Below are positions 18,685 to 34,149 of a stretch of DNA of 64,000 nt, piece after piece. The first letter of the stretch is position 1, and the number at the start of each line of letters is the position of its first letter. The stretch lies in NCBI GenBank assembly GCA_965153285.1, contig OZ229119.1; one strand, written 5' to 3'. The stretch is from Podarcis tiliguerta (taxonomy: Eukaryota). The translations under genes were made by a program, and so were the position numbers. Below the pieces are notes generated by a model that worked only from the letters and a program-made list of their open reading frames with translations, was not told the DNA's origin and did no database searches.

Positions 18685-19176
18685 NNNNNNNNNNNNNNNN
18701 NNNNNNNNNNNNNNNNNNNNNNNNNNNNNNNNNNNNNNNNNNNNNNNNNNNNNNNNNNNNNNNNNNNNNNNNNNNNNNNNNNNNNNNNNNNNNNNNNNNN
18801 NNNNNNNNNNNNNNNNNNNNNNNNNNNNNNNNNNNNNNNNNNNNNNNNNNNNNNNNNNNNNNNNNNNNNNNNNNNNNNNNNNNNNNNNNNNNNNNNNNNN
18901 NNNNNNNNNNNNNNNNNNNNNNNNNNNNNNNNNNNNNNNNNNNNNNNNNNNNNNNNNNNNNNNNNNNNNNNNNNNNNNNNNNNNNNNNNNNNNNNNNNNN
19001 NNNNNNNNNNNNNNNNNNNNNNNNNNNNNNNNNNNNNNNNNNNNNNNNNNNNNNNNNNNNNNNNNNNNNNNNNNNNNNNNNNNNNNNNNNNNNNNNNNNN
19101 NNNNNNNNNNNNNNNNNNNNNNNNNNNNNNNNNNNNNNNNNNNNNNNNNNNNNNNNNNNNNNNNNNNNNNNNNNNN
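18685..19176. other. Assembly gap (492 N)
   Basis: Run of N. Confidence 1.
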
Positions 19177-21296: not shown

Positions 21297-22139
21297 TGTA
21301 GTGTTTCCAATGAAGTGCTAAAAAAATAAAATAGCTTGTAAGGAAAACATGGTGGGGCATGGGGAGAGAGGACAAGTAAAGGACGCGAGGTAAGGCATCC
21401 CCTTTTAATTGCTCCTTTGAACAAATACTGAGGGCTCTCCAGCAAGCACACATGCACCATTAAGCACACCATATATCACCGCTTTCAGGAGGGAGGGCGG
21501 AATATAAATGGGATAAATAATAAATAGATAAAGATCTCCACCCACACATGCACAAAGACAGATTAATCTTTGTCACTAACAATTGCTCGTCAAGCTACAG
21601 GAGAGGTCTCTTAGACCTGCATGGGCGTAGGGGAAATAGCACATTAAGCCTCACACTGCCAAATTAAGGACATCTATCAGGTTAACTTTTTTACATCTGT
21701 ATTTTTATGGCACGAAGAAGAGTTCAATAAAGGACTGAAGTATTTCACATTCCTGTAGTTTAAACCCTTTCCCAAACACTGTCGTGTTTTAATCTTTGTA
21801 CGAGTGCTGTAAAGGAAGCCAGTGTTTTTTATGGTCATATTAAAGGTCATCAACTGAGTTCATGTCAGAGGTGAAAGTAAAACCAGGAACTTCCTGTGTT
21901 TCTAGTTCGGCACGAGAGGAAGACTTGAGCAATCCTTGGGTGGTTCATGGGATTCTCCCATCCCAAGTGATGGGTGTTTATGGATTCAGTATGAGAATGT
22001 GGCCACAGCCTGTCTCTGCCCAACAGAGCAGTCATGATTTTTTCATGAATGGAGGCGTCTCCACTTGGCAACCCTGTATTCTCACAATATTTTGACCTTT
22101 TCAAACCCAACTGTCATTGAACGAAATGGTATATCAGGA

Positions 22140-22547
22140 TGTCAGGGAACTGCCATCGGAAGGACAGGAGGTGCAAGGGCTCTCTGAGGTGGAGAGAGAC
22201 GCAGCAGCGGAAGAGGGAACCAGTAGGGGGAGAGCAGGAACTTCAAGGGAAGGTGAGTCGGAGGAATGGCTCAGAGACGCTTCCAGCGAAAACAGCGGGG
22301 AGGTCTCAGGACCTCCTATAGGGACACCCATTCCTCGCCGGAAACTGTCACGCCGAGAGTCCAGAAGACGTGTTTCCGTTAAGGAGCTTTTATGTTGGAA
22401 ACGATTCCGAAAGCAACCACTTTCGGATTCTGCTAGCGATTGACGCAGCCATGCTGGAAGGGCTCCGTCACAGGCAGAGGTTTGAAAACTTGATCAAACT
22501 CTGAGGGACTTGCAGTTTACGCACAAGCAGCTCTTCATCCCATCACA
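22140..22547 (+). repeat. 5' LTR (408 bp)
   Basis: TGTCAGGG...CATCACA. Identical to 27230-27637 except A22486 versus G27576. Confidence 0.98.
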
Positions 22548-22549
22548 GC

Positions 22550-22560
22550 AATCCGAAAGT
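22550..22560 (+). promoter_or_regulatory. Self-priming primer-binding site (PBS)
   Basis: AATCCGAAAGT lies 2 nt after the LTR, lacks the TGG of a tRNA PBS, and is the exact reverse complement of LTR 22419-22429 (ACTTTCGGATT). Confidence 0.85.
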
Positions 22561-22594
22561 CACCGAAAGCTAGCTTGTGACAGGGAGAGGCATC

Positions 22595-23614
22595 ATGAGC
22601 GAACCAGCCGGAACCGGAGGAGCAGGAGCAGCTGGAGGAGGTCCAAGCCTGGAGGAAAGGTACAGAGCGTTGGAGATCCAGCTTGCCTTGCAAACGGCGA
22701 GGCTGGAGGAGAGGAGGGCTCAGGATGCAGAAAAGGGGAAGGAGAAAACCACCCCGCTCACCACAAAGATGCCAGGATTGGTGCAGAAATTCGGGGGGGA
22801 CCCCAGAAACTATCATGCCTTTAGAACAGAGATGCAGTACGCTCTCAACCTGCAGTTTGATGACTTCCCCGACGAGGAATCGCGAGTGGCTTTTGTAATT
22901 AGCCATCTCGAATCAGGGGCGAAGGACTGGGTTAGACCCCTGATGGCAGCGAATAATGAGATCCTAAAGGACACGATGAAGTTTTTTCGTGCCATGGACC
23001 TGATGTTTTCCAGCGACATTGAGCAGGGGGTGGTGCGAAGGCAGTTAATGGCTTGCAAACAGGGGAGCCGGTCTGTCCGTGAGTACTGGACTGAGTTTAC
23101 TATGTTGATTCATAGATTGGGGTGGGACCTATCGGCGGAACCCATTCAGATGCTTTTCGAAGAGGGGCTCTCTTCGTCCCTTAAAGATGAACTTTCCTGG
23201 GCCCCCAGGGCGGAGTCTATGGACCAGCTGACTAAATCCGCGCTGGCCATAGGAGCGCCCCAGGAAGCGAGGGCTTTGGAAAGGCGGGAAGGGAAAGGAG
23301 AACGTTGGAGGGAGCTCCGCATTCCAGACATTCCAGAGCCGCCTTTCCCGCCGGCAGAGCCGATGGAAGTTGGAACAGCGCGGGCGCGCGCAGTTTCAAA
23401 CCTCAGTGAAGGGCGGAAGAAGGAGGGAAAGAGCGCCAAGAAATGTTATCTCTGCCAACAGCCAGGACACTTTGCCAGAGTCTGTCCACAAAGAAAGGAA
23501 TGGCAAGGGATGGCAGGAGCTGTTGGGGGAGAAGAGGAGGAAAGCAAGGAGCAAGTAAAAGCCAACGCCTGGCTGCCACCGTCGGGGCACAGCAGCCAGG
23601 CCAAAAAGCAGTGA
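22595..23614 (+). CDS. gag: Gag (retrotransposon capsid plus CCHC zinc knuckle)
   Basis: ATG at 22595. Contains KFGGDPRNYHAF, LESGAKDW, KQGSRSVREY, PMEVG and CYLCQQPGHFARVC; sushi/PEG10-like. Confidence 0.95.
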   Translation: MSEPAGTGGAGAAGGGPSLEERYRALEIQLALQTARLEERRAQDAEKGKEKTTPLTTKMPGLVQKFGGDPRNYHAFRTEMQYALNLQFDDFPDEESRVAFVISHLESGAKDWVRPLMAANNEILKDTMKFFRAMDLMFSSDIEQGVVRRQLMACKQGSRSVREYWTEFTMLIHRLGWDLSAEPIQMLFEEGLSSSLKDELSWAPRAESMDQLTKSALAIGAPQEARALERREGKGERWRELRIPDIPEPPFPPAEPMEVGTARARAVSNLSEGRKKEGKSAKKCYLCQQPGHFARVCPQRKEWQGMAGAVGGEEEESKEQVKANAWLPPSGHSSQAKKQ

Positions 23615-25896
23615 AAGTGCCCACGCCAGAACCTCCCAGACCTGCTTTAGTGATAGAGGTGTTGCTAGAGCTGCCAAACGGACACCCACTACAGATCAAG
23701 GCGCTTTTGGATTCAGGCAGCTCCTGTAATTTCATGAGTAAGGAGTTTGCAGCTGAGCACCAGATACAGACCATCCCCTTAAGTAACCCCCTGCAGGTGA
23801 CCACGATTGACAGCAGAGAGCTGTTGGGAGGAGAAGTGAACCAACAGACAGTCCCTATGATAATGAGGGTGGCAAGGCACACCGAAAGGATAGCGTTTAA
23901 TGTGGCCACCTTGGGAGGAGCTCCCATCATTTTGGGGATGAGCTGGCTGGCACTACACGATCCTCTAGTGGGCTGGCATCAGAGGGTGGTCTCCTTTGGG
24001 TCAGCGCATTGCCTAGAACACTGCAAGCAGGGGAAGGTCCCAGGAGGAGCCAGACTCACCCTAGCCGGGATGGAGGTAATGAATAAAGGGAAGGTGCCTC
24101 CGCAATACGCAGATCTGAGCAACGTATTTAGCGAAAGGGAAGCGGACAAACTGCCGCCGCATAGACCCTTTGACTGTCAAATCAACCTACTCCCTGGGGC
24201 TCAACTCCCAGTGGGCAAGCTGTACGCCATGTCAGACAGGGAGATGCAGGAGTTGAGGGAGTTCATTGACAAAAACCTGAAGCGAGGTTTCATCAGAGAG
24301 TCCCGAGCGGTGGGGGGCAGTCCAGTGTTTTTTGTGGACAAAAAGAACACAGATAAGCCGAGACTTGTAGTGGACTTCAGGGCCCTAAATGCCGTGTCGG
24401 AACCCCTGGCTTTTCCTATGTCCCGAATTGATGACATTCTGACCAGAGTGAGGAAGGGGAAGATTTTTACAAAACTGGACCTGCGGGGGGCGTACAATCT
24501 GATACGCATAAGGAAGGGGGATGAATGGAAGACCACCATGTTCACCCCTTTGGGAGCATTTGAATACCTCGTCATGCCCTTCGGTCTCCAAGCAGGCTCA
24601 GCATGTTTTCAAAGTTTTATGAACCACGTCTTGGGACCTTTGCTCTACAAGAATTGTGTGGCCTTTTTAGATGACGTGTTGGTGTATTCGGAAGATGAAG
24701 AGCAGCATGTGAGGGACGTGCGAGAAGTGTTGGGCCGGCTACAAGCCAATCAGCTGTGGGTGAAACTGGAGAAGTGCCAGTTTCATACCAAGGAGGTGGA
24801 ATTCCTGGGGTACCGCTTGTCAGACAAAGGATTGGCCATGGATCCAGGCAAGGTCCAAGCGGTACTGGAATGGAAAACACCGAAGACCAAGAAGGATGTG
24901 CAAAGATTCCTGGGGTTTGGGAACTTTTATCGGAAGTTCATCAAGAACTTTGCACACTTGACGGCGCCCATCACCGACTGCCTCAGTAGCAAGAAGAAAT
25001 TTCTTTGGACGGCGGAGGCGGAGCGAGCATTTGAAGAACTGAAAAGGGCTTTCGCCTCGGAAGAACAACTTCTGCATGTGGACTTACGGAAACCCATGAG
25101 AGTGGAGACAGACGCGTCTGACCGGGCGGTAGGGGCGGTACTTCTTCAACCGGGAAGGAATACGTCGGAGTGGAGACCGTGCGCCTTCTTCTCGAGGAAG
25201 CTGAATAAGTCCGAGCGGAACTACACGGTGTATGACAGGGAGCTACTCGCCATTCACGAAGCGTTCCGGAGGTGGAGACATTTGTTAATTGGGGCACAAC
25301 ACAAGGTGCAAGTGTGCACCGACCACAAGAATTTGGAGTATTGGAGAACGGCTCGAGTACTCAACCAACGACAAGTGAGATGGGCACAGGAATTCTCCAA
25401 ATTCCACTTTGAAATTTGTTATGTGCCAGGCCCAGAAAACGTCAGGGCGGACGCTCTCTCACGCAAACCAGAGTATTTGGAGGGGGAGGGGGCAATCGAA
25501 GAAAGACATGTCATCCCTGAGGACCGCTGGGTGTGTGGGGCGGCGCTGGTGGGGCGACGAGAACTGGTAGAGGAAACGGAAAATGATGAGTATGCCCAGG
25601 ATAAGCTCAGAGGTCTCAGGGGAGAGGGTGAGAGTCCAGAAGGTTTTGAGGAAAGAAATGGGGCATTGTATTACAAAGGGGCACTGTATATACCAGGAGG
25701 TGAATTGAGGGGAAGAGTACTCAAGCAGTTGCACGATAGCCCCACAGCGGGACATTTTGGACAACACAAGACCATGTGGATGGTTACCAGGGAATTTTGG
25801 TGGCCCAAGGTGAGGGAAGATGTAAAGGAGTATGTAAGACGGTGTGACCAATGTCAGAGAGCCAAGGGGGAAAGAAGGGCGCGGCAGGGTTATTAG
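23443..25896 (+). CDS. pol: Pol part 1: aspartic protease, reverse transcriptase, RNase H, integrase HHCC (real translation probably enters near 23560 by frameshift)
   Basis: LLDSGS (protease); KLDLRGAY, MPFGL, FLDD (RT); TDASD, ELLAI, TDHKNL, ADALSR (RNase H); HDSPTAGH...CDQC (integrase Zn finger). Confidence 0.95.
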   Translation: MLSLPTARTLCQSLSTKKGMARDGRSCWGRRGGKQGASKSQRLAATVGAQQPGQKAVKVPTPEPPRPALVIEVLLELPNGHPLQIKALLDSGSSCNFMSKEFAAEHQIQTIPLSNPLQVTTIDSRELLGGEVNQQTVPMIMRVARHTERIAFNVATLGGAPIILGMSWLALHDPLVGWHQRVVSFGSAHCLEHCKQGKVPGGARLTLAGMEVMNKGKVPPQYADLSNVFSEREADKLPPHRPFDCQINLLPGAQLPVGKLYAMSDREMQELREFIDKNLKRGFIRESRAVGGSPVFFVDKKNTDKPRLVVDFRALNAVSEPLAFPMSRIDDILTRVRKGKIFTKLDLRGAYNLIRIRKGDEWKTTMFTPLGAFEYLVMPFGLQAGSACFQSFMNHVLGPLLYKNCVAFLDDVLVYSEDEEQHVRDVREVLGRLQANQLWVKLEKCQFHTKEVEFLGYRLSDKGLAMDPGKVQAVLEWKTPKTKKDVQRFLGFGNFYRKFIKNFAHLTAPITDCLSSKKKFLWTAEAERAFEELKRAFASEEQLLHVDLRKPMRVETDASDRAVGAVLLQPGRNTSEWRPCAFFSRKLNKSERNYTVYDRELLAIHEAFRRWRHLLIGAQHKVQVCTDHKNLEYWRTARVLNQRQVRWAQEFSKFHFEICYVPGPENVRADALSRKPEYLEGEGAIEERHVIPEDRWVCGAALVGRRELVEETENDEYAQDKLRGLRGEGESPEGFEERNGALYYKGALYIPGGELRGRVLKQLHDSPTAGHFGQHKTMWMVTREFWWPKVREDVKEYVRRCDQCQRAKGERRARQGY
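23554..23622 (+). promoter_or_regulatory. Putative -1 ribosomal frameshift signal (slip site plus H-type pseudoknot)
   Basis: pol is in the -1 frame relative to gag. Stem 1 is GCCTGGCTGC (23567-23576) / GCAGCCAGGC (23592-23601); loop GGGCAC (23585-23590) pairs with GTGCCC (23617-23622). Confidence 0.8.
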
Positions 25897-27533
25897 AACC
25901 ATTACCCACACCAGAACGGCCTTGGGAAGCGGTATCAATAGATTTTATGACGGATCTGCCAAAATCCAAGGGGAAAACAGCCATCATGGTAGTAGTAGAC
26001 CTGTTAACCAAGATGTGCCACTTTGTAGCATGCTCACATGCAGTCACAGCGGAAGAAACAGCTAAGTTGTTTGTAGAACACATCTTTAGGCTGCACGGCG
26101 CCCCCTTGAGGGTGATCTCAGACCGCGGCAAACAATTTACTTCCAGGTTCTGGAGGAAGCTCATGAGCTTACTGCACGTGGAAGTCAATTTTTCGACTGC
26201 CCGGCACCCTGAAACCAACGGGCAGGCGGAAAGAGCAAATGGCATCCTCCAACAATATCTGAGGTGTTATGTCAATGACAGAGAGAACGATTGGGTCGAA
26301 AAGTTGGCGCTGGCAGAATTTGCCTACAACAATGCGGAGAATGTGTCCACAGGGATGAGCCCCTTTTTGGCTAATTATGGGTGTCACCCCAGGGCTTTTC
26401 CAGGGGAGGGAGGCGAGAGATGGAGCGTCCCAGCGGCCGAACATTTTGTAGAGGAGATGGAAGCGATCCATCGTCAGCTCCAGCTCAACTTAGAAAGGGC
26501 CAAGGCTCAATATAAGAAGCAGGCAGACAAGAACAGAAGGGAAGGTGAAACCATAAGGGTGGGGGATCAGGTGTGGCTGTCAACCCAAGGGTTGCCGTTC
26601 AAAGGGGGTTGTAAAAAATTAAGACCCAAGAGATTGGGACCCTTTGAGGTCATTCAGCAGGTCAACCCAGTGGCTTTCAAACTCCGGTTACCCAGCCACA
26701 TGAAATTGCACCCAGTGTTCCACAGGTCGTTACTGTCACCGTACAGGGGGGGACGTGAAGGGGAGCACACCAGGGGACCACCCTTGGAAGAAAGGGAAAG
26801 AAGCAACCATGTAGCGGAAATCCTCGATTCTAGGTGGAAGGGAAATCAGGTGGAGTATTTGGTGGCGTGGGAAGGGGAACCGGAGTCAGAAAACACCTGG
26901 GTGACTGCAGGGGAGGTCAATGACGAGGTTTTAACAGAAACGTTCCACCAAAGATTCCCGAGGAAACCACAGCCGGTAGCAAGGTTTAGGAGGGAGTATT
27001 TCGGCACCACCGACGAGGAAGAGGAACTGGAAGGATTCGCGGAGTCGGAGTTGGAAGAGGGAATGGACTCCGATGACGAGGAGTATCGAGAGACCAGGAA
27101 CAGCAACAAGTGGAGGAAGGTGTTCGAAACCTCGGACGATGAGGAAGGTTCTTTCAGGGGTTTTACCTCCTCACAACCCGTAGGGAAGGAGACGGGAGGG
27201 GGTGAAGGGGGCCCTGGAGGGGAGGTGGATGTCAGGGAACTGCCATCGGAAGGACAGGAGGTGCAAGGGCTCTCTGAGGTGGAGAGAGACGCAGCAGCGG
27301 AAGAGGGAACCAGTAGGGGGAGAGCAGGAACTTCAAGGGAAGGTGAGTCGGAGGAATGGCTCAGAGACGCTTCCAGCGAAAACAGCGGGGAGGTCTCAGG
27401 ACCTCCTATAGGGACACCCATTCCTCGCCGGAAACTGTCACGCCGAGAGTCCAGAAGACGTGTTTCCGTTAAGGAGCTTTTATGTTGGAAACGATTCCGA
27501 AAGCAACCACTTTCGGATTCTGCTAGCGATTGA
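25851..27533 (+). CDS. pol: Pol part 2: integrase DDE core, GPY/F, chromodomain, acidic FxGF-motif tail and basic tail; separated from part 1 by a 1-nt deletion near 25882
   Basis: SIDF, ISDRG, PETNGQAERAN, GPFEVI, VAEILDSR...YLVAWEG...NTW. The stop codon lies inside the 3' LTR. Confidence 0.93.
   Translation: MSESQGGKKGAAGLLEPLPTPERPWEAVSIDFMTDLPKSKGKTAIMVVVDLLTKMCHFVACSHAVTAEETAKLFVEHIFRLHGAPLRVISDRGKQFTSRFWRKLMSLLHVEVNFSTARHPETNGQAERANGILQQYLRCYVNDRENDWVEKLALAEFAYNNAENVSTGMSPFLANYGCHPRAFPGEGGERWSVPAAEHFVEEMEAIHRQLQLNLERAKAQYKKQADKNRREGETIRVGDQVWLSTQGLPFKGGCKKLRPKRLGPFEVIQQVNPVAFKLRLPSHMKLHPVFHRSLLSPYRGGREGEHTRGPPLEERERSNHVAEILDSRWKGNQVEYLVAWEGEPESENTWVTAGEVNDEVLTETFHQRFPRKPQPVARFRREYFGTTDEEEELEGFAESELEEGMDSDDEEYRETRNSNKWRKVFETSDDEEGSFRGFTSSQPVGKETGGGEGGPGGEVDVRELPSEGQEVQGLSEVERDAAAEEGTSRGRAGTSREGESEEWLRDASSENSGEVSGPPIGTPIPRRKLSRRESRRRVSVKELLCWKRFRKQPLSDSASD
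27216..27229 (+). promoter_or_regulatory. Polypurine tract
   Basis: Purine-rich GGAGGGGAGGTGGA immediately before the 3' LTR. Confidence 0.85.
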
Positions 27534-27637
27534 CGCAGCCATGCTGGAAGGGCTCCGTCACAGGCAGAGGTTTGAGAACTTGATCAAACTCTGAGGGACT
27601 TGCAGTTTACGCACAAGCAGCTCTTCATCCCATCACA
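27230..27637 (+). repeat. 3' LTR (408 bp)
   Basis: Direct repeat of 22140-22547. Confidence 0.98.
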
Positions 27638-28959
27638 CAGGAGCTCTGCTCTTCCTTGGATATGCTTGTCCTCCATTCAGGATAGTGATGTCTTCTGCAT
27701 CCTTGCTATCTACCTTGGCTTCATGATCTGGCCTACTGTTTTCCTGTTTTTGCAAAGCTTTGACAGTCCGAGGAGCCAGATGTATGCCAATAAGTGGAAT
27801 ATGCCAGGTCACATTTTAGGGCTATGCACTCCTTAAATATCACCTGCTCTGCTAAATGAATGGGAAGCCTTTGTGAAGCATTATGTGTCACGTCCTCTTA
27901 AAACAGCTCTTCTTAATACCATGGTGATTAAATTTCTCTATATCTATTTAGGCAGTGAATGTGTGTGACTTGAATTATAATGTATTAATGATGCTGGACT
28001 TCCCCCACAGCATGCTGTGAACTCCCACTGGGACTTCTTGGCTTTTAGTGTGTGTGGTAGATATTTTGAGTTTTAAGTAAGTGCTATAAATAAATGCAGC
28101 AATTACTGTGTAGGGCAATGAAAAAGATAACTGGTTAAGTTTAGCTTTGTGGAGCTATCGTTGTTATATTATTGCTGCTAAGCAGTTAGGCTCAGAGAAC
28201 CTTTGTAATCTTTGTTAATCATCCTGTGGAGAAATTCTGTTTTCCTCTTTTTCTCCCTTCACCCCAATATAGTGACTATATACATAACTTTTGAAATAAC
28301 TAGATAGCATAAGGGTTAGAATTCAATGTAAAATGAGATCCTGGGAATAATGACACTGCTTGCATTAATCCCCATATCATCAGGAAATGAAAAGGAAAAA
28401 GAAATAACATTTGGATACACATCCCTCTACCATTTTTTAGCCAAAAACATTTTGTTTGGTTCCATTTATGAATTGCTTCCCATAAAAATATCTCAGAGCA
28501 AATCCACAGTAAAAACAACAGATTTCTTTGTCTTCTTTTGTGGGGTGGGGAAAAGGAATTCATATAATTTCCAATTTAATCCAATGCAAATCTGGGAGAG
28601 CTCACCCAGGGCTACTATTGATAGCCATGCCCCTATGAATTTCTCTAGTTCCCTTTTGTCTTTTAAAATGAATTCTAAGGTACTTAGAGAGACACCCATG
28701 ACTCTTCATCAGCCTGACTCACCTTTGTCTCTTGGCTTCCCTCATCCCACTCACTTGCTTCAGCTTCTGCCTCTGATTCTGCACTTCTCTCTGCCATTGA
28801 CTCTCCCAGCTCACTAAGCCCTGTCACTAAGCTCTTCAGCTTCCAATATCTCCTCCTCCCAGTCTCCACCCCCTGACCACTTCTTCCTTTGGGGGTTTCC
28901 CTTCTGGTTCCTTTGCATCCAACCAGTCCATGGCAGGCAGAAAGCACTGCACAATATTG

Positions 28960-31416: not shown

Positions 31417-32950
31417 CACAACTGCTGAGTCTTGTGCTGTCTAGGCCCAGGACAAGTGGAAGTGAGATGAAAGAAGGAAAGATAGAGAATCCTGTTCAGA
31501 ATATAACCTATATATTGATTTAACAAAATTTATATACCACTTGATTGAAATAAAACCTCCAAGTGGTTTACAAAAAAAAATAAAAAATTAAAACATTGAA
31601 ATTATCAATAAAGGCAGCTAGAAACAAGTATTTTAAAACATTCAAAAATAAATAATACCAACAGTAAGCTGAAAACAAAAACTTCTACATGTGTATATTT
31701 GCCACCAACTTAACTGCACACCCATTTCCCCCAGGTTTTCAGAGTAAAATGTGTAAATAAATGTGCATATATTTACTTTGCATATATTGCTGCCCGTATA
31801 TTATTTATGATTTCAGGTATTCAAAGAATTGGTATTATGGGAAAAGACTGCCAGAAACAAAAGGAGGATGGGAGTTAAAGGGTTGGGAGTGGGGACTTTT
31901 GATTGCTATGAAGGCAGGGACAGGGCACTGCACAGGGCACTGAGGTTTTTATGCTTTTAATAGATGCATGTGAATCCGAAATAAATTGAGTAAAAAGAGC
32001 CTAGAAAGCCTTGCAAATGGCATTTGTAAAAGAATAGCTTATGTTGGAAGTGGTTTCCTTTTGCATGCCTCACATAATCTGGAACAATGTTATTAATTAT
32101 CTTGGCTAACTTCCTTCGTTGTATCTCAATGTGGTTTAGCTAATTTCCCCTCCTAGTCTTTCAATTTGGTCATTCATGCATCATAAACCGTACCATACAT
32201 TCAGATTGGGGCTGTTGCATACTGTCTAGCTTAATTTCCCTTTCATAAGTATACTCTCTTTAAGTGCCAAGATCTGTACTCAACTAGCTGACTAATTAAG
32301 TGTTTTGTCTCTCATAGTGAATCGTATTCATTCATAGGTCATTGGAAAGATATTGGCTTCCTGCAATATTCCTTCCAAGTTTTGATTTATATGAAAAACC
32401 AAACCAAAAAACCCTGGCAATGAAAAAAAAAAGTAGGAATATTTGGCACCATACGTACTCTGTAATTAGATATTCGACAGTGGCAACCTTGGAGAGCATG
32501 GTAGCTAACAAAAATACAGAGAAGAAGTGTCATGATGCTGGCTCACAATGAGCTGGCTCACAATTCGAACACAGAGCTGCATTCTACTGAAAAGTCCCTG
32601 TCACCAATCTGTATGATACCATCCATTGGACCTGGTCCGTGGGGACAAATGGGGCACTGCCCCACCACCCTGTCTCCCCTCAGTCACCCCCCACTTGCCT
32701 TCTTGCTTACAACCAGATCTGCCTGCCATCAGCACTGGGCCTCTTGCCTCCTGCTCCACCCAATTGGATACCAGCAGGAGGAGTGTAAAAATGGTTTGAG
32801 GGTTGGGCAATGAGATAACCTTGGTGGAATTGGACCCCGTAAATAGGTTTAGGAAAGCTTTTTGGCCCCGAGAACCACATGCAGACGTTTTTGGGGGGAG
32901 GGGGTGCCTGTATGATGGTAGGTGTGGCCAGAAGCAGCTAGTCCCATGTG

Positions 32951-33936
32951 CTTCATAAAACTTAGGGAAGTGCTGGGTGAGATCCCATGGACAGTAATAC
33001 TAAAAGGAAAGGGAGTTCATGATGGCTGGGAGTTTGTTAAGAGGGAGATAGTAAAAACACAACTTCAGGCAATACCAATGAGACGGAAACATGGAAGGTG
33101 CCTAAAGAAGCCAGGGTGGCTATCTAAAGAACTTTTAACTGAGTTAAGATTAAAAAAGGATGTGTACAAAAAATGGAAAAGGGGGGAAACCACCAAAGAG
33201 GAATTCAAACAAATAGCCAGCACGTGTAAACACAAAGTCAGAAAAGCTAAAGCACAGAATGAACTCAGGCTTGCTAGAGAGGTTAAAAGCAACAAAAAAG
33301 GCTTTTATGGGTATGTCCGTAGCAAAAGGAAGAACAAAGAAACAGTGGGGTCTCTCAGAGGAGAAGATGGTGAAATGCAAACAGGGGACACAGAAAGGGC
33401 TGAACTCCTCAATGCCTTCTTTGCCTCAGTCTTCTCCGATAGAGAAAACAATGCCCGACCTGAAGAATTTGGAGCAAATGATTCAGCAGAGGAAACACAG
33501 CCCAGAATAACTAAGGAGATAGTACAAGAATACTTGGCTAGTTTAGATGTATTCAAGTCTCCAGAGCCAGATGAACTGCATCCAAGAGTATTAAAAGAAC
33601 TGGCAGATGTGATCTCAGAACCACTGGCAGTCATCTTTGAGAATTCCTGGAGAACAGGCGAAGTCCCGGCAGACTGGAGGAGGGCAAATGTTGTCCCTAT
33701 TTTCAAAAAGGGGAAAAGAGAGGACCCAAATAATTACCGCCCAGTCAGTCTGACATCAATACCAGGGAAGATTCTGGAGCAGATCATCAAGCAAACAATC
33801 TGTGAGCACCTAGAAAGGAATGCTGTGATCACCAATAGTCAGCATGGATTTCTGAAAAATAAGTCATGTCAGACTAACCTGATCTCGTTTTTTGACAGAA
33901 TTACAAGCCTGGTAGATGAAGGGAACGCAGTGGATG
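32951..33936 (+). mobile_element. CR1 LINE ORF2 internal fragment (linker plus start of RT), open for about 330 codons
   Basis: AELLNAFFASVF, KSPEPDELHPRVLKELADVI, DWRRANVVPIFKKG, NYRPVSLTSIPGKILEQII, SQHGF, SCQTNLISFFD. Confidence 0.95.
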
Positions 33937-34149
33937 ATCTTTACTACTTAGAACAAAGCAGTGTACAATCCATAAAATGCATTGAAACAGCTGAACAATA
34001 AAAACAGACTAAAATGAGTCCTGGACATTAGCTCCCCTATCCAACATCCCAGTTTAAACTCCAATTGCCATTCTTGTTCCACGCTCCATACTAGGCGATT
34101 TCTCTCTCTCGATCTACAGGGCAGCTGGGAGAAATATCCCAATAAATGC

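What the first reader, a model, noticed from the sequence alone, without database searches (positions are those of the whole stretch)
22388..22580. tRNA-independent self-priming structure (Tf1-type, 11-nt primer)
Seen: no TGG-type tRNA PBS follows the LTR. Instead 22550-22560 is perfectly complementary to 22419-22429, which lies 26-31 nt downstream of a TATA-like TTTTAT (22388-22393). U5 CACAAGC-AGCT (22522-22532) can also pair with leader AGCT-A-GCTTGTG (22568-22579), flanking the PBS. Known: fission yeast Tf1 primes with the first 11 nt of its own mRNA, and this was proposed for vertebrate sushi elements. Inference: transcription starts at A22419.
Basis: partly seen in the sequence, partly recalled or inferred. 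Interest (0 to 1): 0.7.

Follow-up and report, generated by a model that had tools for sequence, protein, structure and literature searches.

The report
Self-priming lizard retrotransposon with cap footprint
A young jumping gene in a lizard-like genome has no tRNA docking site; the 11 bases after its left repeat pair perfectly with a site inside that repeat, and its relatives keep this pairing with different letters, so it likely starts copying itself with the first 11 bases of its own RNA, as shown for yeast Tf1 and already proposed for this vertebrate group.

Summary
The 11-bp match is real: 22550-22560 pairs with 22419-22429, two bases after the left LTR (22140-22547) of a young Ty3/gypsy chromovirus. 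Chance is low (30 of 20,000 shuffles). Relatives in the same genome carry 11 different primer/PBS pairs, each matching its own LTR. In a 9x9 cross test 0 of 72 foreign pairings were perfect. Tf1-type self-priming is therefore likely (0.9); it was proposed for vertebrate Tf1/sushi elements in 2001, and this scan has noted it in other genomes. The U5-leader helix holds in four of six families tested. The 'TATA-like' TTTTAT is not supported: it is a poor match, is not conserved, and lies in integrase codons. Added here: the base after the PBS is C in 145 of 150 junctions, although the LTR base before the primer is never G (0 of 39), and the next base is a mutation hot spot among sibling copies. 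This fits copying of the 5' cap plus an untemplated base, which would place the start at A22419 from genome data alone. No start-site data were available. New member of a known kind.

The parts
22135..22139 (+). left copy of the 5-bp target-site duplication (right copy 27638-27642)
22140..22547 (+). 5' LTR, 408 bp; ends fit the Sushi-clade att motifs TGTYANR / CNTNACA
   Evidence: motifs from PMC3601003 passage
22388..22393 (+).
22406..22413 (+). 8-nt U3 complement of the primer core; can form a hairpin with the primer if the RNA starts upstream; not seen in the other families' upstream contexts
22419..22429 (+). predicted self-primer, first 11 nt of the RNA (start inferred at A22419, in a YYANWYY initiator-like context; that consensus is recalled)
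22522..22532 (+). U5 arm of the U5-leader helix
22548..22549 (+). 2-nt spacer between LTR end and PBS (first base G in 38 of 39 elements)
22550..22560 (+). primer-binding site, perfect complement of 22419-22429
22561..22562 (+). fixed C after the PBS (candidate partner or copy of the cap G) and the hypervariable base behind it
22568..22579 (+). leader arm of the U5-leader helix
22595..23614 (+). gag (Retrotrans_gag, Ty3_capsid, CCHC knuckle)
23410..25896 (+). pol frame, -1 to gag (protease, RT, RNase H, integrase zinc finger); this copy is broken by a frame change inside integrase, near 25848-25896
25848..27533 (+). integrase core, Tf2-1-like SH3, chromodomain and a ~190-aa acidic tail that reads through the PPT, U3 and the primer copy of the 3' LTR
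27027..27164 (+). two acidic (F/L)xGF motifs in the integrase tail (27027-27038, 27153-27164)
27216..27229 (+). polypurine tract region before the 3' LTR
27230..27637 (+). 3' LTR; primer copy at 27509-27519

Best explanation
This is the left end of a young Ty3/gypsy chromovirus whose PBS (22550-22560) is perfectly complementary to 22419-22429 in its own LTR, and it likely primes reverse transcription as Tf1 does: a capped RNA likely starting at A22419 would fold back on the PBS and be cut after base 11, and that piece would prime minus-strand DNA. SHOWN in sequence: the element's anatomy; the 11-bp duplex 2 nt after the LTR; its retention with different letters in related families; a purine at +1 after a pyrimidine; a U5-leader helix round the PBS in four families; a fixed C after the PBS and a hot spot one base further. 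INFERRED from Tf1: the start site, the cut after base 11 by the element's RNase H, and priming. INFERRED here, about even odds: the C faces or is copied from the cap G when plus-strand DNA runs to the end of the primer, and an untemplated base added next is fixed at the second strand transfer. Copying the primer into the plus-strand PBS would also explain how single changes appear on both sides at once.
For: Exact 11-bp duplex; 30 of 20,000 shuffles. Of 87 long loci examined, 44 gave a TG..CA LTR pair; with the window 45, of which 39 had a target-site duplication of at least 4/5 and were scored. 27 of 39 have a perfect 11-bp match in the 5' LTR, 3 more (family B) a perfect 10-bp match, and 9 have 1-2 mismatches; 39 of 39 are within 1 mismatch of an 11-mer in at least one LTR. 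Family H: 29 of 29 junctions found in 30 loci are perfect. Nine distinct 11-mers share only the first A; positions 2-11 all vary and pairs differ at up to 10 of 11 positions. Single both-side changes separate close sisters D/D2, F/F2, H/H2 and B/B2. 0 of 72 foreign PBS-LTR pairings are perfect, 6 have one mismatch. Predicted pairing probability is 0.86-0.97 in 13 of 14 elements when the RNA starts at the primer. PBS+1 is C in 39 of 39 and 145 of 150; primer-1 is never G (0 of 39). PBS+2 is matched or exceeded in variability by 2/272, 0/268, 2/254, 0/265 and 23/254 control columns in A, B, G, H and D. Literature passages: Tf1 mechanism (PMC7175516); three-duplex 'pretzel' and Tf1/sushi group (PMC10085805); Tf1 RT adds untemplated bases and copies its primer (PMC11042837; PMC3185545); RTs copy the cap as C (PMC3853366).
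Against: No start site, cleavage or priming was measured. No TATA box supports the start in A, D, E, F or G. One family-B copy folds its primer elsewhere in the model (probability 0.00). The U5-leader helix is not above shuffles in G (60-166 of 300) or B (83 and 180 of 300) and is marginal in the window copy itself (26 of 300) and F2 (28 of 300). The stretch as a whole has z -0.51. The tRNA set compared was incomplete (28 distinct genes, 14 anticodons). Copies within a family are related and were picked as best hits, so 150 junctions amount to about seven lineages. E and F (3 and 6 copies) show no variation at PBS+2, and 5 of 150 junctions lack the C.
Confidence: 0.9

Rival explanations
1. Self-priming from an internal position: the RNA starts upstream of 22419 and two cuts (or one cut giving a longer primer) release the primer, so the start site is not A22419.
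For: No TATA box fixes the start in most families. In 10 of 14 models the duplex still forms (0.81 or more) with 40 extra 5' bases. Tf2 uses alternative start sites (PMC5341516 passages).
Against: The duplex always ends at a purine after a pyrimidine and never extends 5'. The fixed C and the hot spot sit where a copy of a capped 11-mer would end. In the window copy an upstream start drops pairing from 0.91 to 0.32, with a competing U3 hairpin.
Confidence: 0.06
2. A host tRNA fragment or other small RNA primes, and the LTR match is only a structural helix.
For: Half-tRNA priming exists in other LTR elements (PMC6317226 passages). Only 14 anticodon types were recovered. One 9-bp match to an intron-containing ARAGORN call was seen.
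Against: None of 8 family PBSs has TGG near the LTR. Eleven different PBSs each follow their own LTR letter by letter, which fixed host RNAs cannot do. A genome-wide pattern of the primer's last 9 nt before a T-loop gave 5 hits against 25 in the reversed control, and none is a tRNA under default ARAGORN. The 9-bp call probably lies in one of those pattern-selected loci.
Confidence: 0.03
3. The match is chance or a non-functional by-product.
For: The stretch does not fold better than shuffles overall. The primer also lies in integrase codons in some families.
Against: Shuffle rate 0.0015, the same 2-nt offset in all 39 scored elements, and both-side changes. The reading frame over the primer differs among families and stops before it in F and B, so coding cannot explain it.
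Confidence: 0.01

Closest known systems
Tf1/Tf2 of Schizosaccharomyces pombe (self-priming shown for Tf1)
   Same: Chromodomain integrase; no tRNA PBS; 11-nt primer inside the LTR complementary to the PBS; flanking duplexes of the 'pretzel' type (PMC7175516, PMC10085805 passages).
   Different: Here Gag has a CCHC knuckle and pol lies in the -1 frame (fission-yeast elements lack CCHC; Tf1 is one ORF). The PBS is set off by 2 nt, whereas the Tf1 passage implies a primer copy right next to the cDNA end (PMC11042837; my inference). The integrase frame runs ~300 nt into the 3' LTR and over the primer copy.
Vertebrate Tf1/sushi group (V-clade: sushi-ichi, Amn-ichi, -ni, -san); self-priming proposed by Butler et al. 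2001 (cited; the paper itself not seen)
   Same: LTR ends fit the Sushi att motifs; chromodomain and Tf2-1-like SH3; Gag's best solved relative is PEG10 (E 3.6e-4); nearest named Pol relatives are lizard and snake gypsy proteins (Podarcis 85% and 71%).
   Different: No tree with named sushi or Amn references was built. I found no paper showing family-level primer/PBS covariation in squamates, or a fixed C after the PBS, in searches.
Tj1 (S. japonicus) and plant Tcn1 chromoviruses
   Same: Self-priming predicted from the same kind of PBS-LTR complementarity (PMC4600332, PMC6317226 passages).
   Different: [quoted passage not shown]

Membership tests
Ty3/gypsy chromovirus | LTRs with TG..CA, target-site duplication, order PR-RT-RH-IN | tested here: met
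   best solved relative Ty3 Gag-Pol, E 1.3e-90
Ty3/gypsy chromovirus | Chromodomain behind integrase | tested here: met
   PF00385, 33.6 bits, cut-off 25.1
Tf1/sushi group | RT-IN phylogeny inside the fungi/vertebrate chromovirus cluster | not tested
   the tree holds only families from this genome, no named references
Tf1/sushi group | Sushi-type LTR end motifs TGTYANR / CNTNACA | tested here: met
   window ends against Table 3 passage of PMC3601003
Tf1/sushi group | No PBS complementary to a tRNA 3' end | tested here: met
   no TGG in the first 7 leader bases of 8 of 8 families
Tf1/sushi group | No better match to an internal tRNA fragment | tested here: inconclusive
   best match 6-9 bp against an incomplete set of 28 genes; pattern search at chance level
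Tf1-type self-priming | PBS complementary to ~11 nt inside the element's own LTR, kept by both-side changes | tested here: met
Tf1-type self-priming | Duplex between U5 and the leader behind the PBS | tested here: met
   met in A, D, E, F (0-11 of 300 shuffles in 7 of 9 elements; window 26, F2 28); not above shuffles in G and B
Tf1-type self-priming | Third duplex between bases after the primer and bases before the PBS | tested here: inconclusive
   3-5 bp extension past a 1-nt bulge in the minimum-energy folds of D, E, F; other register in A; weak in G and B
Tf1-type self-priming | Primer is the capped 5' end of the RNA | not testable with these tools
   only assembled contigs were listed; indirect support
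Tf1-type self-priming | RNase H cut between bases 11 and 12 | not testable with these tools
   RNase H domain present; the cut needs RNA or biochemical data

The most novel reading that the evidence does not exclude
Self-primed elements leave a readable footprint of their RNA cap in the genome. The C after the PBS is the partner or copy of the m7G cap, making a 12th pair, and the base behind it records untemplated addition at the end of plus-strand strong-stop DNA. Thousands of genomic copies would then map the start site and primer length to the base without RNA data, and would tell true 5'-end self-priming from look-alikes in any vertebrate genome.
Probability: 0.5. Interest if true: 0.6.

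Novelty: new member of a known kind. Interest (0 to 1): 0.4.

Why it matters
In the passages I read, self-priming is shown for Tf1 and proposed from sequence for vertebrate elements. Eleven covarying primer/PBS pairs in one lizard genome give strong comparative support for that proposal in a vertebrate. The fixed C and the hot spot offer a genome-only way to locate the primer's 5' end, and a sharp prediction for CAGE and cDNA-end sequencing. The mechanism itself is not new.

Tried and rejected
TATA-like TTTTAT as evidence for the start: rejected. U3 hairpin 22406-22419 and the partial second PBS copy at 22563-22569 as general features: rejected; the hairpin is seen in family A only, the second copy in A and B only. 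Expression: no RNA holder listed and no raw reads, so no start site. Contigs of 4 runs from related organisms were laid (RNA is a guess): none of the 40 listed differences falls in the primer or PBS, but 86 more were not shown, so this is not counted as evidence. Pfam searches for Gag families mostly returned one abundant family. A sushi-like PPT pattern gave 1 hit against 2 in the control. A distant lineage (RT about 48% identical; L118, L120, L131) gave no LTR pair and only old copies. L099 and L100 have degenerate LTR ends and were not scored. The Rfam tRNA search scored only 63 of about 269,000 candidates. A first hot-spot script mixed 3' LTR ends into family A and crashed; it was redone. 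One search was an empty alignment of no use. Papers not held: Levin 1995, Lin and Levin 1998, Esnault and Levin 2015, Atwood-Moore 2005 and 2006. The last two report Tf1 cDNA ends and may already describe a cap-derived C. No structure or complex job was run for the FxGF motifs, because a pass would mostly reflect likeness to solved complexes.

Full report
1. The observation. The finding lies at the left end of a 5.5-kb LTR retrotransposon. A 300-nt direct repeat at 5,090 nt spacing extends to two 408-bp LTRs, 22140-22547 and 27230-27637, with one difference and a 5-bp target-site duplication. Two bases after the LTR, 22550-22560 is the exact reverse complement of 22419-22429, and the bases on either side do not pair. 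30 of 20,000 dinucleotide shuffles of the LTR held an 11-nt complement to any part of the first 25 leader bases. The 182-nt stretch as a whole is not unusually stable (z -0.51), although its best fold closes the primer-PBS helix.

2. The element. Gag (capsid, CCHC), protease, RT, RNase H, integrase, Tf2-1-like SH3 and chromodomain are all found. The best solved relatives are Ty3 Pol and PEG10. The LTR ends fit the Sushi-clade motifs in PMC3601003 (passages). The nearest named Pol relatives are from Podarcis, Anolis and Naja (8 of 150 hits looked up), so the host is probably a lacertid-like lizard. The family is young and abundant: the 40 best-scored of 1,054 candidates are 98-100% identical. 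The window copy has one frame change inside integrase.

3. Covariation. I fetched 87 long loci, chosen from Gag, PPT-pattern and SH3 hits (fetched in 22, 29, 37, 40, 42-44). 43 gave no usable LTR pair or TG..CA ends. 44 did, 45 with the window; 6 were dropped for lack of a target-site duplication, leaving 39. All 39 were read at the same offset, 2 nt after the LTR. 27 have a perfect 11-bp partner in the 5' LTR, 3 (family B) a perfect 10-bp partner, and 9 have one or two mismatches; all 39 are within one mismatch in at least one LTR. A further family, H, was read from copies with a split or cut LTR pair and 30 short loci, with 29 of 29 junctions perfect. The nine distinct 11-mers share only their first A and differ at up to 10 positions. 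Sister pairs D/D2, F/F2, H/H2 and B/B2 differ by one base on both sides. No PBS matches another family's LTR perfectly (0 of 72; 6 have one mismatch). RT identity to the window runs from about 80% (D-G) through 72% (H) to 53% (B). The families are related, so these are about seven lineages, not 39 trials.

4. Flanking structure. PMC10085805 (passages) describes a three-duplex 'pretzel' for Tf1. With the primer removed and the PBS held open, a U5-leader helix encloses the PBS. Its duplex energy was reached by 0-11 of 300 shuffled leaders in 7 of 9 elements of A, D, E and F; the window copy (26) and F2 (28) are marginal, and G (60, 105, 166) and B (83, 180) are not above chance. The letters of the helix differ between families. 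A short third duplex (3-5 bp past a bulge) appears in D, E and F folds. With the RNA starting at the primer, pairing probability is 0.86-0.97 in 13 of 14 elements and 0.00 in one B copy.

5. The start site. The TATA argument fails. TTTTAT is 3 mismatches from TATAWAWR (consensus recalled), 15 LTR sites do as well, and E, F and G have 3-5 mismatches there; only B has a near-perfect box at -31/-30, unique in its LTR. The integrase frame runs into the 3' LTR and ends 25 nt past the primer's first base in A and D, and TTTTAT falls in Leu-Leu-Cys-Trp codons whose Cys-Trp recurs in A, D, E, F and G. Other features point to the primer's first base. It is a purine in 39 of 39 and follows a pyrimidine in 38 of 39. 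The base after the PBS is C in 39 of 39 and in 145 of 150 junctions from seven families (filter: at most 1 mismatch to a family PBS and a primer upstream, no filter on this base), while the LTR base before the primer is never G (0 of 39). So the C has no genomic partner but would face a cap G. One base further, sibling copies vary far above background: minor-allele fraction 0.10, 0.14, 0.43, 0.62 and 0.27 against 0.009, 0.009, 0.036, 0.028 and 0.058 in A, B, G, H and D. Control columns as variable: 2/272, 0/268, 2/254, 0/265, 23/254 (kept 31/31, 50/52, 7/16, 26/26, 11/16 copies). E and F (3 and 6 copies) do not vary there. RTs copy the cap as C (PMC3853366 passage), and Tf1 RT copies its primer and adds untemplated bases (PMC11042837 and PMC3185545 passages). 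My reading, inferred and at about even odds, is that plus-strand DNA runs to the primer's 5' end, copies the cap, adds a base and then transfers, leaving both marks. The C could instead be inherited or structural.

6. tRNA rival. No TGG follows the LTR in 8 of 8 families. Against 28 distinct ARAGORN genes (14 anticodons, incomplete) the longest duplex is 6-9 bp. The 9-bp match for the window is to an intron-containing call, probably in a locus picked by my own pattern search, which gave 5 hits against 25 control hits and no tRNA under default settings. Eleven PBSs that track their own LTRs argue against any fixed host primer.

7. Known and new. Tf1 uses its first 11 bases, cut by RNase H (PMC7175516 passage). 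Self-priming is given as a common feature of the Tf1/sushi group, vertebrates included (PMC10085805, PMC4600332, PMC6317226 passages). I saw only passages of these papers and no supplements. The primary Levin-laboratory papers were not held and Butler 2001 was not seen; they may already hold the cap observation or lizard examples. Searches listed no paper on squamate primer/PBS covariation or a fixed C after a self-primer PBS; searches listed none on FxGF motifs in a retrotransposon integrase (titles and abstract starts seen). This scan has earlier notes of self-priming in shark-like, ray, moss and diatom genomes (unchecked AI notes) and none on the cap.

8. Verdict. Self-priming is likely (0.9), the start at A22419 is probable but unmeasured, and the TATA argument is rejected. 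It works like Tf1. Membership in the Tf1/sushi group fits every feature that gave a clear result but lacks a tree with named references. New member of a known kind; interest 0.4, up to 0.6 if the cap footprint holds.

Noticed in passing
window 27027-27038 and 27153-27164; families D, E, F, G; L102: The integrase tail carries two acidic, Ser/Thr-rich (F/L)xGF motifs, both kept in 33 of the 35 A, D, E, F and G elements with an open frame, one kept in another; one FxGF in H, none in B. FxGF is the consensus of proteins that bind the LEDGF/p75 integrase-binding domain (PMC6877644 passage), so the tail may tether integration to active chromatin. 0 of 38 chromodomain hits among 158 fetched proteins had it. 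Binding untested.
   Followed up: partly
window 27230-27533: The integrase frame reads through the PPT and 304 nt into the 3' LTR, across the primer copy, ending in a basic stretch. It also enters the LTR in B, D, E, F, G and H, stopping between 36 nt before and 25 nt after the primer's first base in the commonest copies.
   Followed up: partly
window 22419-22547: No AATAAA-type signal among the variants searched in R-U5 of families A, D and B, whereas F, F2 and G have AATAAA about 70 nt after the primer. How A transcripts end is unexplained.
   Followed up: partly
window 23563-23625: A strong hairpin (-28.5 kcal/mol for the 80-nt stretch) with a possible pseudoknot lies at the gag-pol overlap, but I saw no canonical slippery heptamer just upstream.
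   Followed up: no
window 22563-22569; L091 leader: Families A and B carry a partial second copy of the PBS core just downstream of the PBS; it is absent in D-H.
   Followed up: partly
G000 contig C24 (22.6 Mb): This contig holds a large share of the diverged chromovirus hits, as a W-like or heterochromatic chromosome would.
   Followed up: no
L101-L103 (G000:C5): Two family-B elements are inserted inside family-H elements.
   Followed up: partly
window 32922-34001: A 359-aa frame with a weak RT hit (below cut-off), probably a LINE fragment; several interspersed repeat families also occur in the window.
   Followed up: no
window 18685-19176: Run of 492 N; the ORFs listed over it are artefacts.
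   Followed up: no
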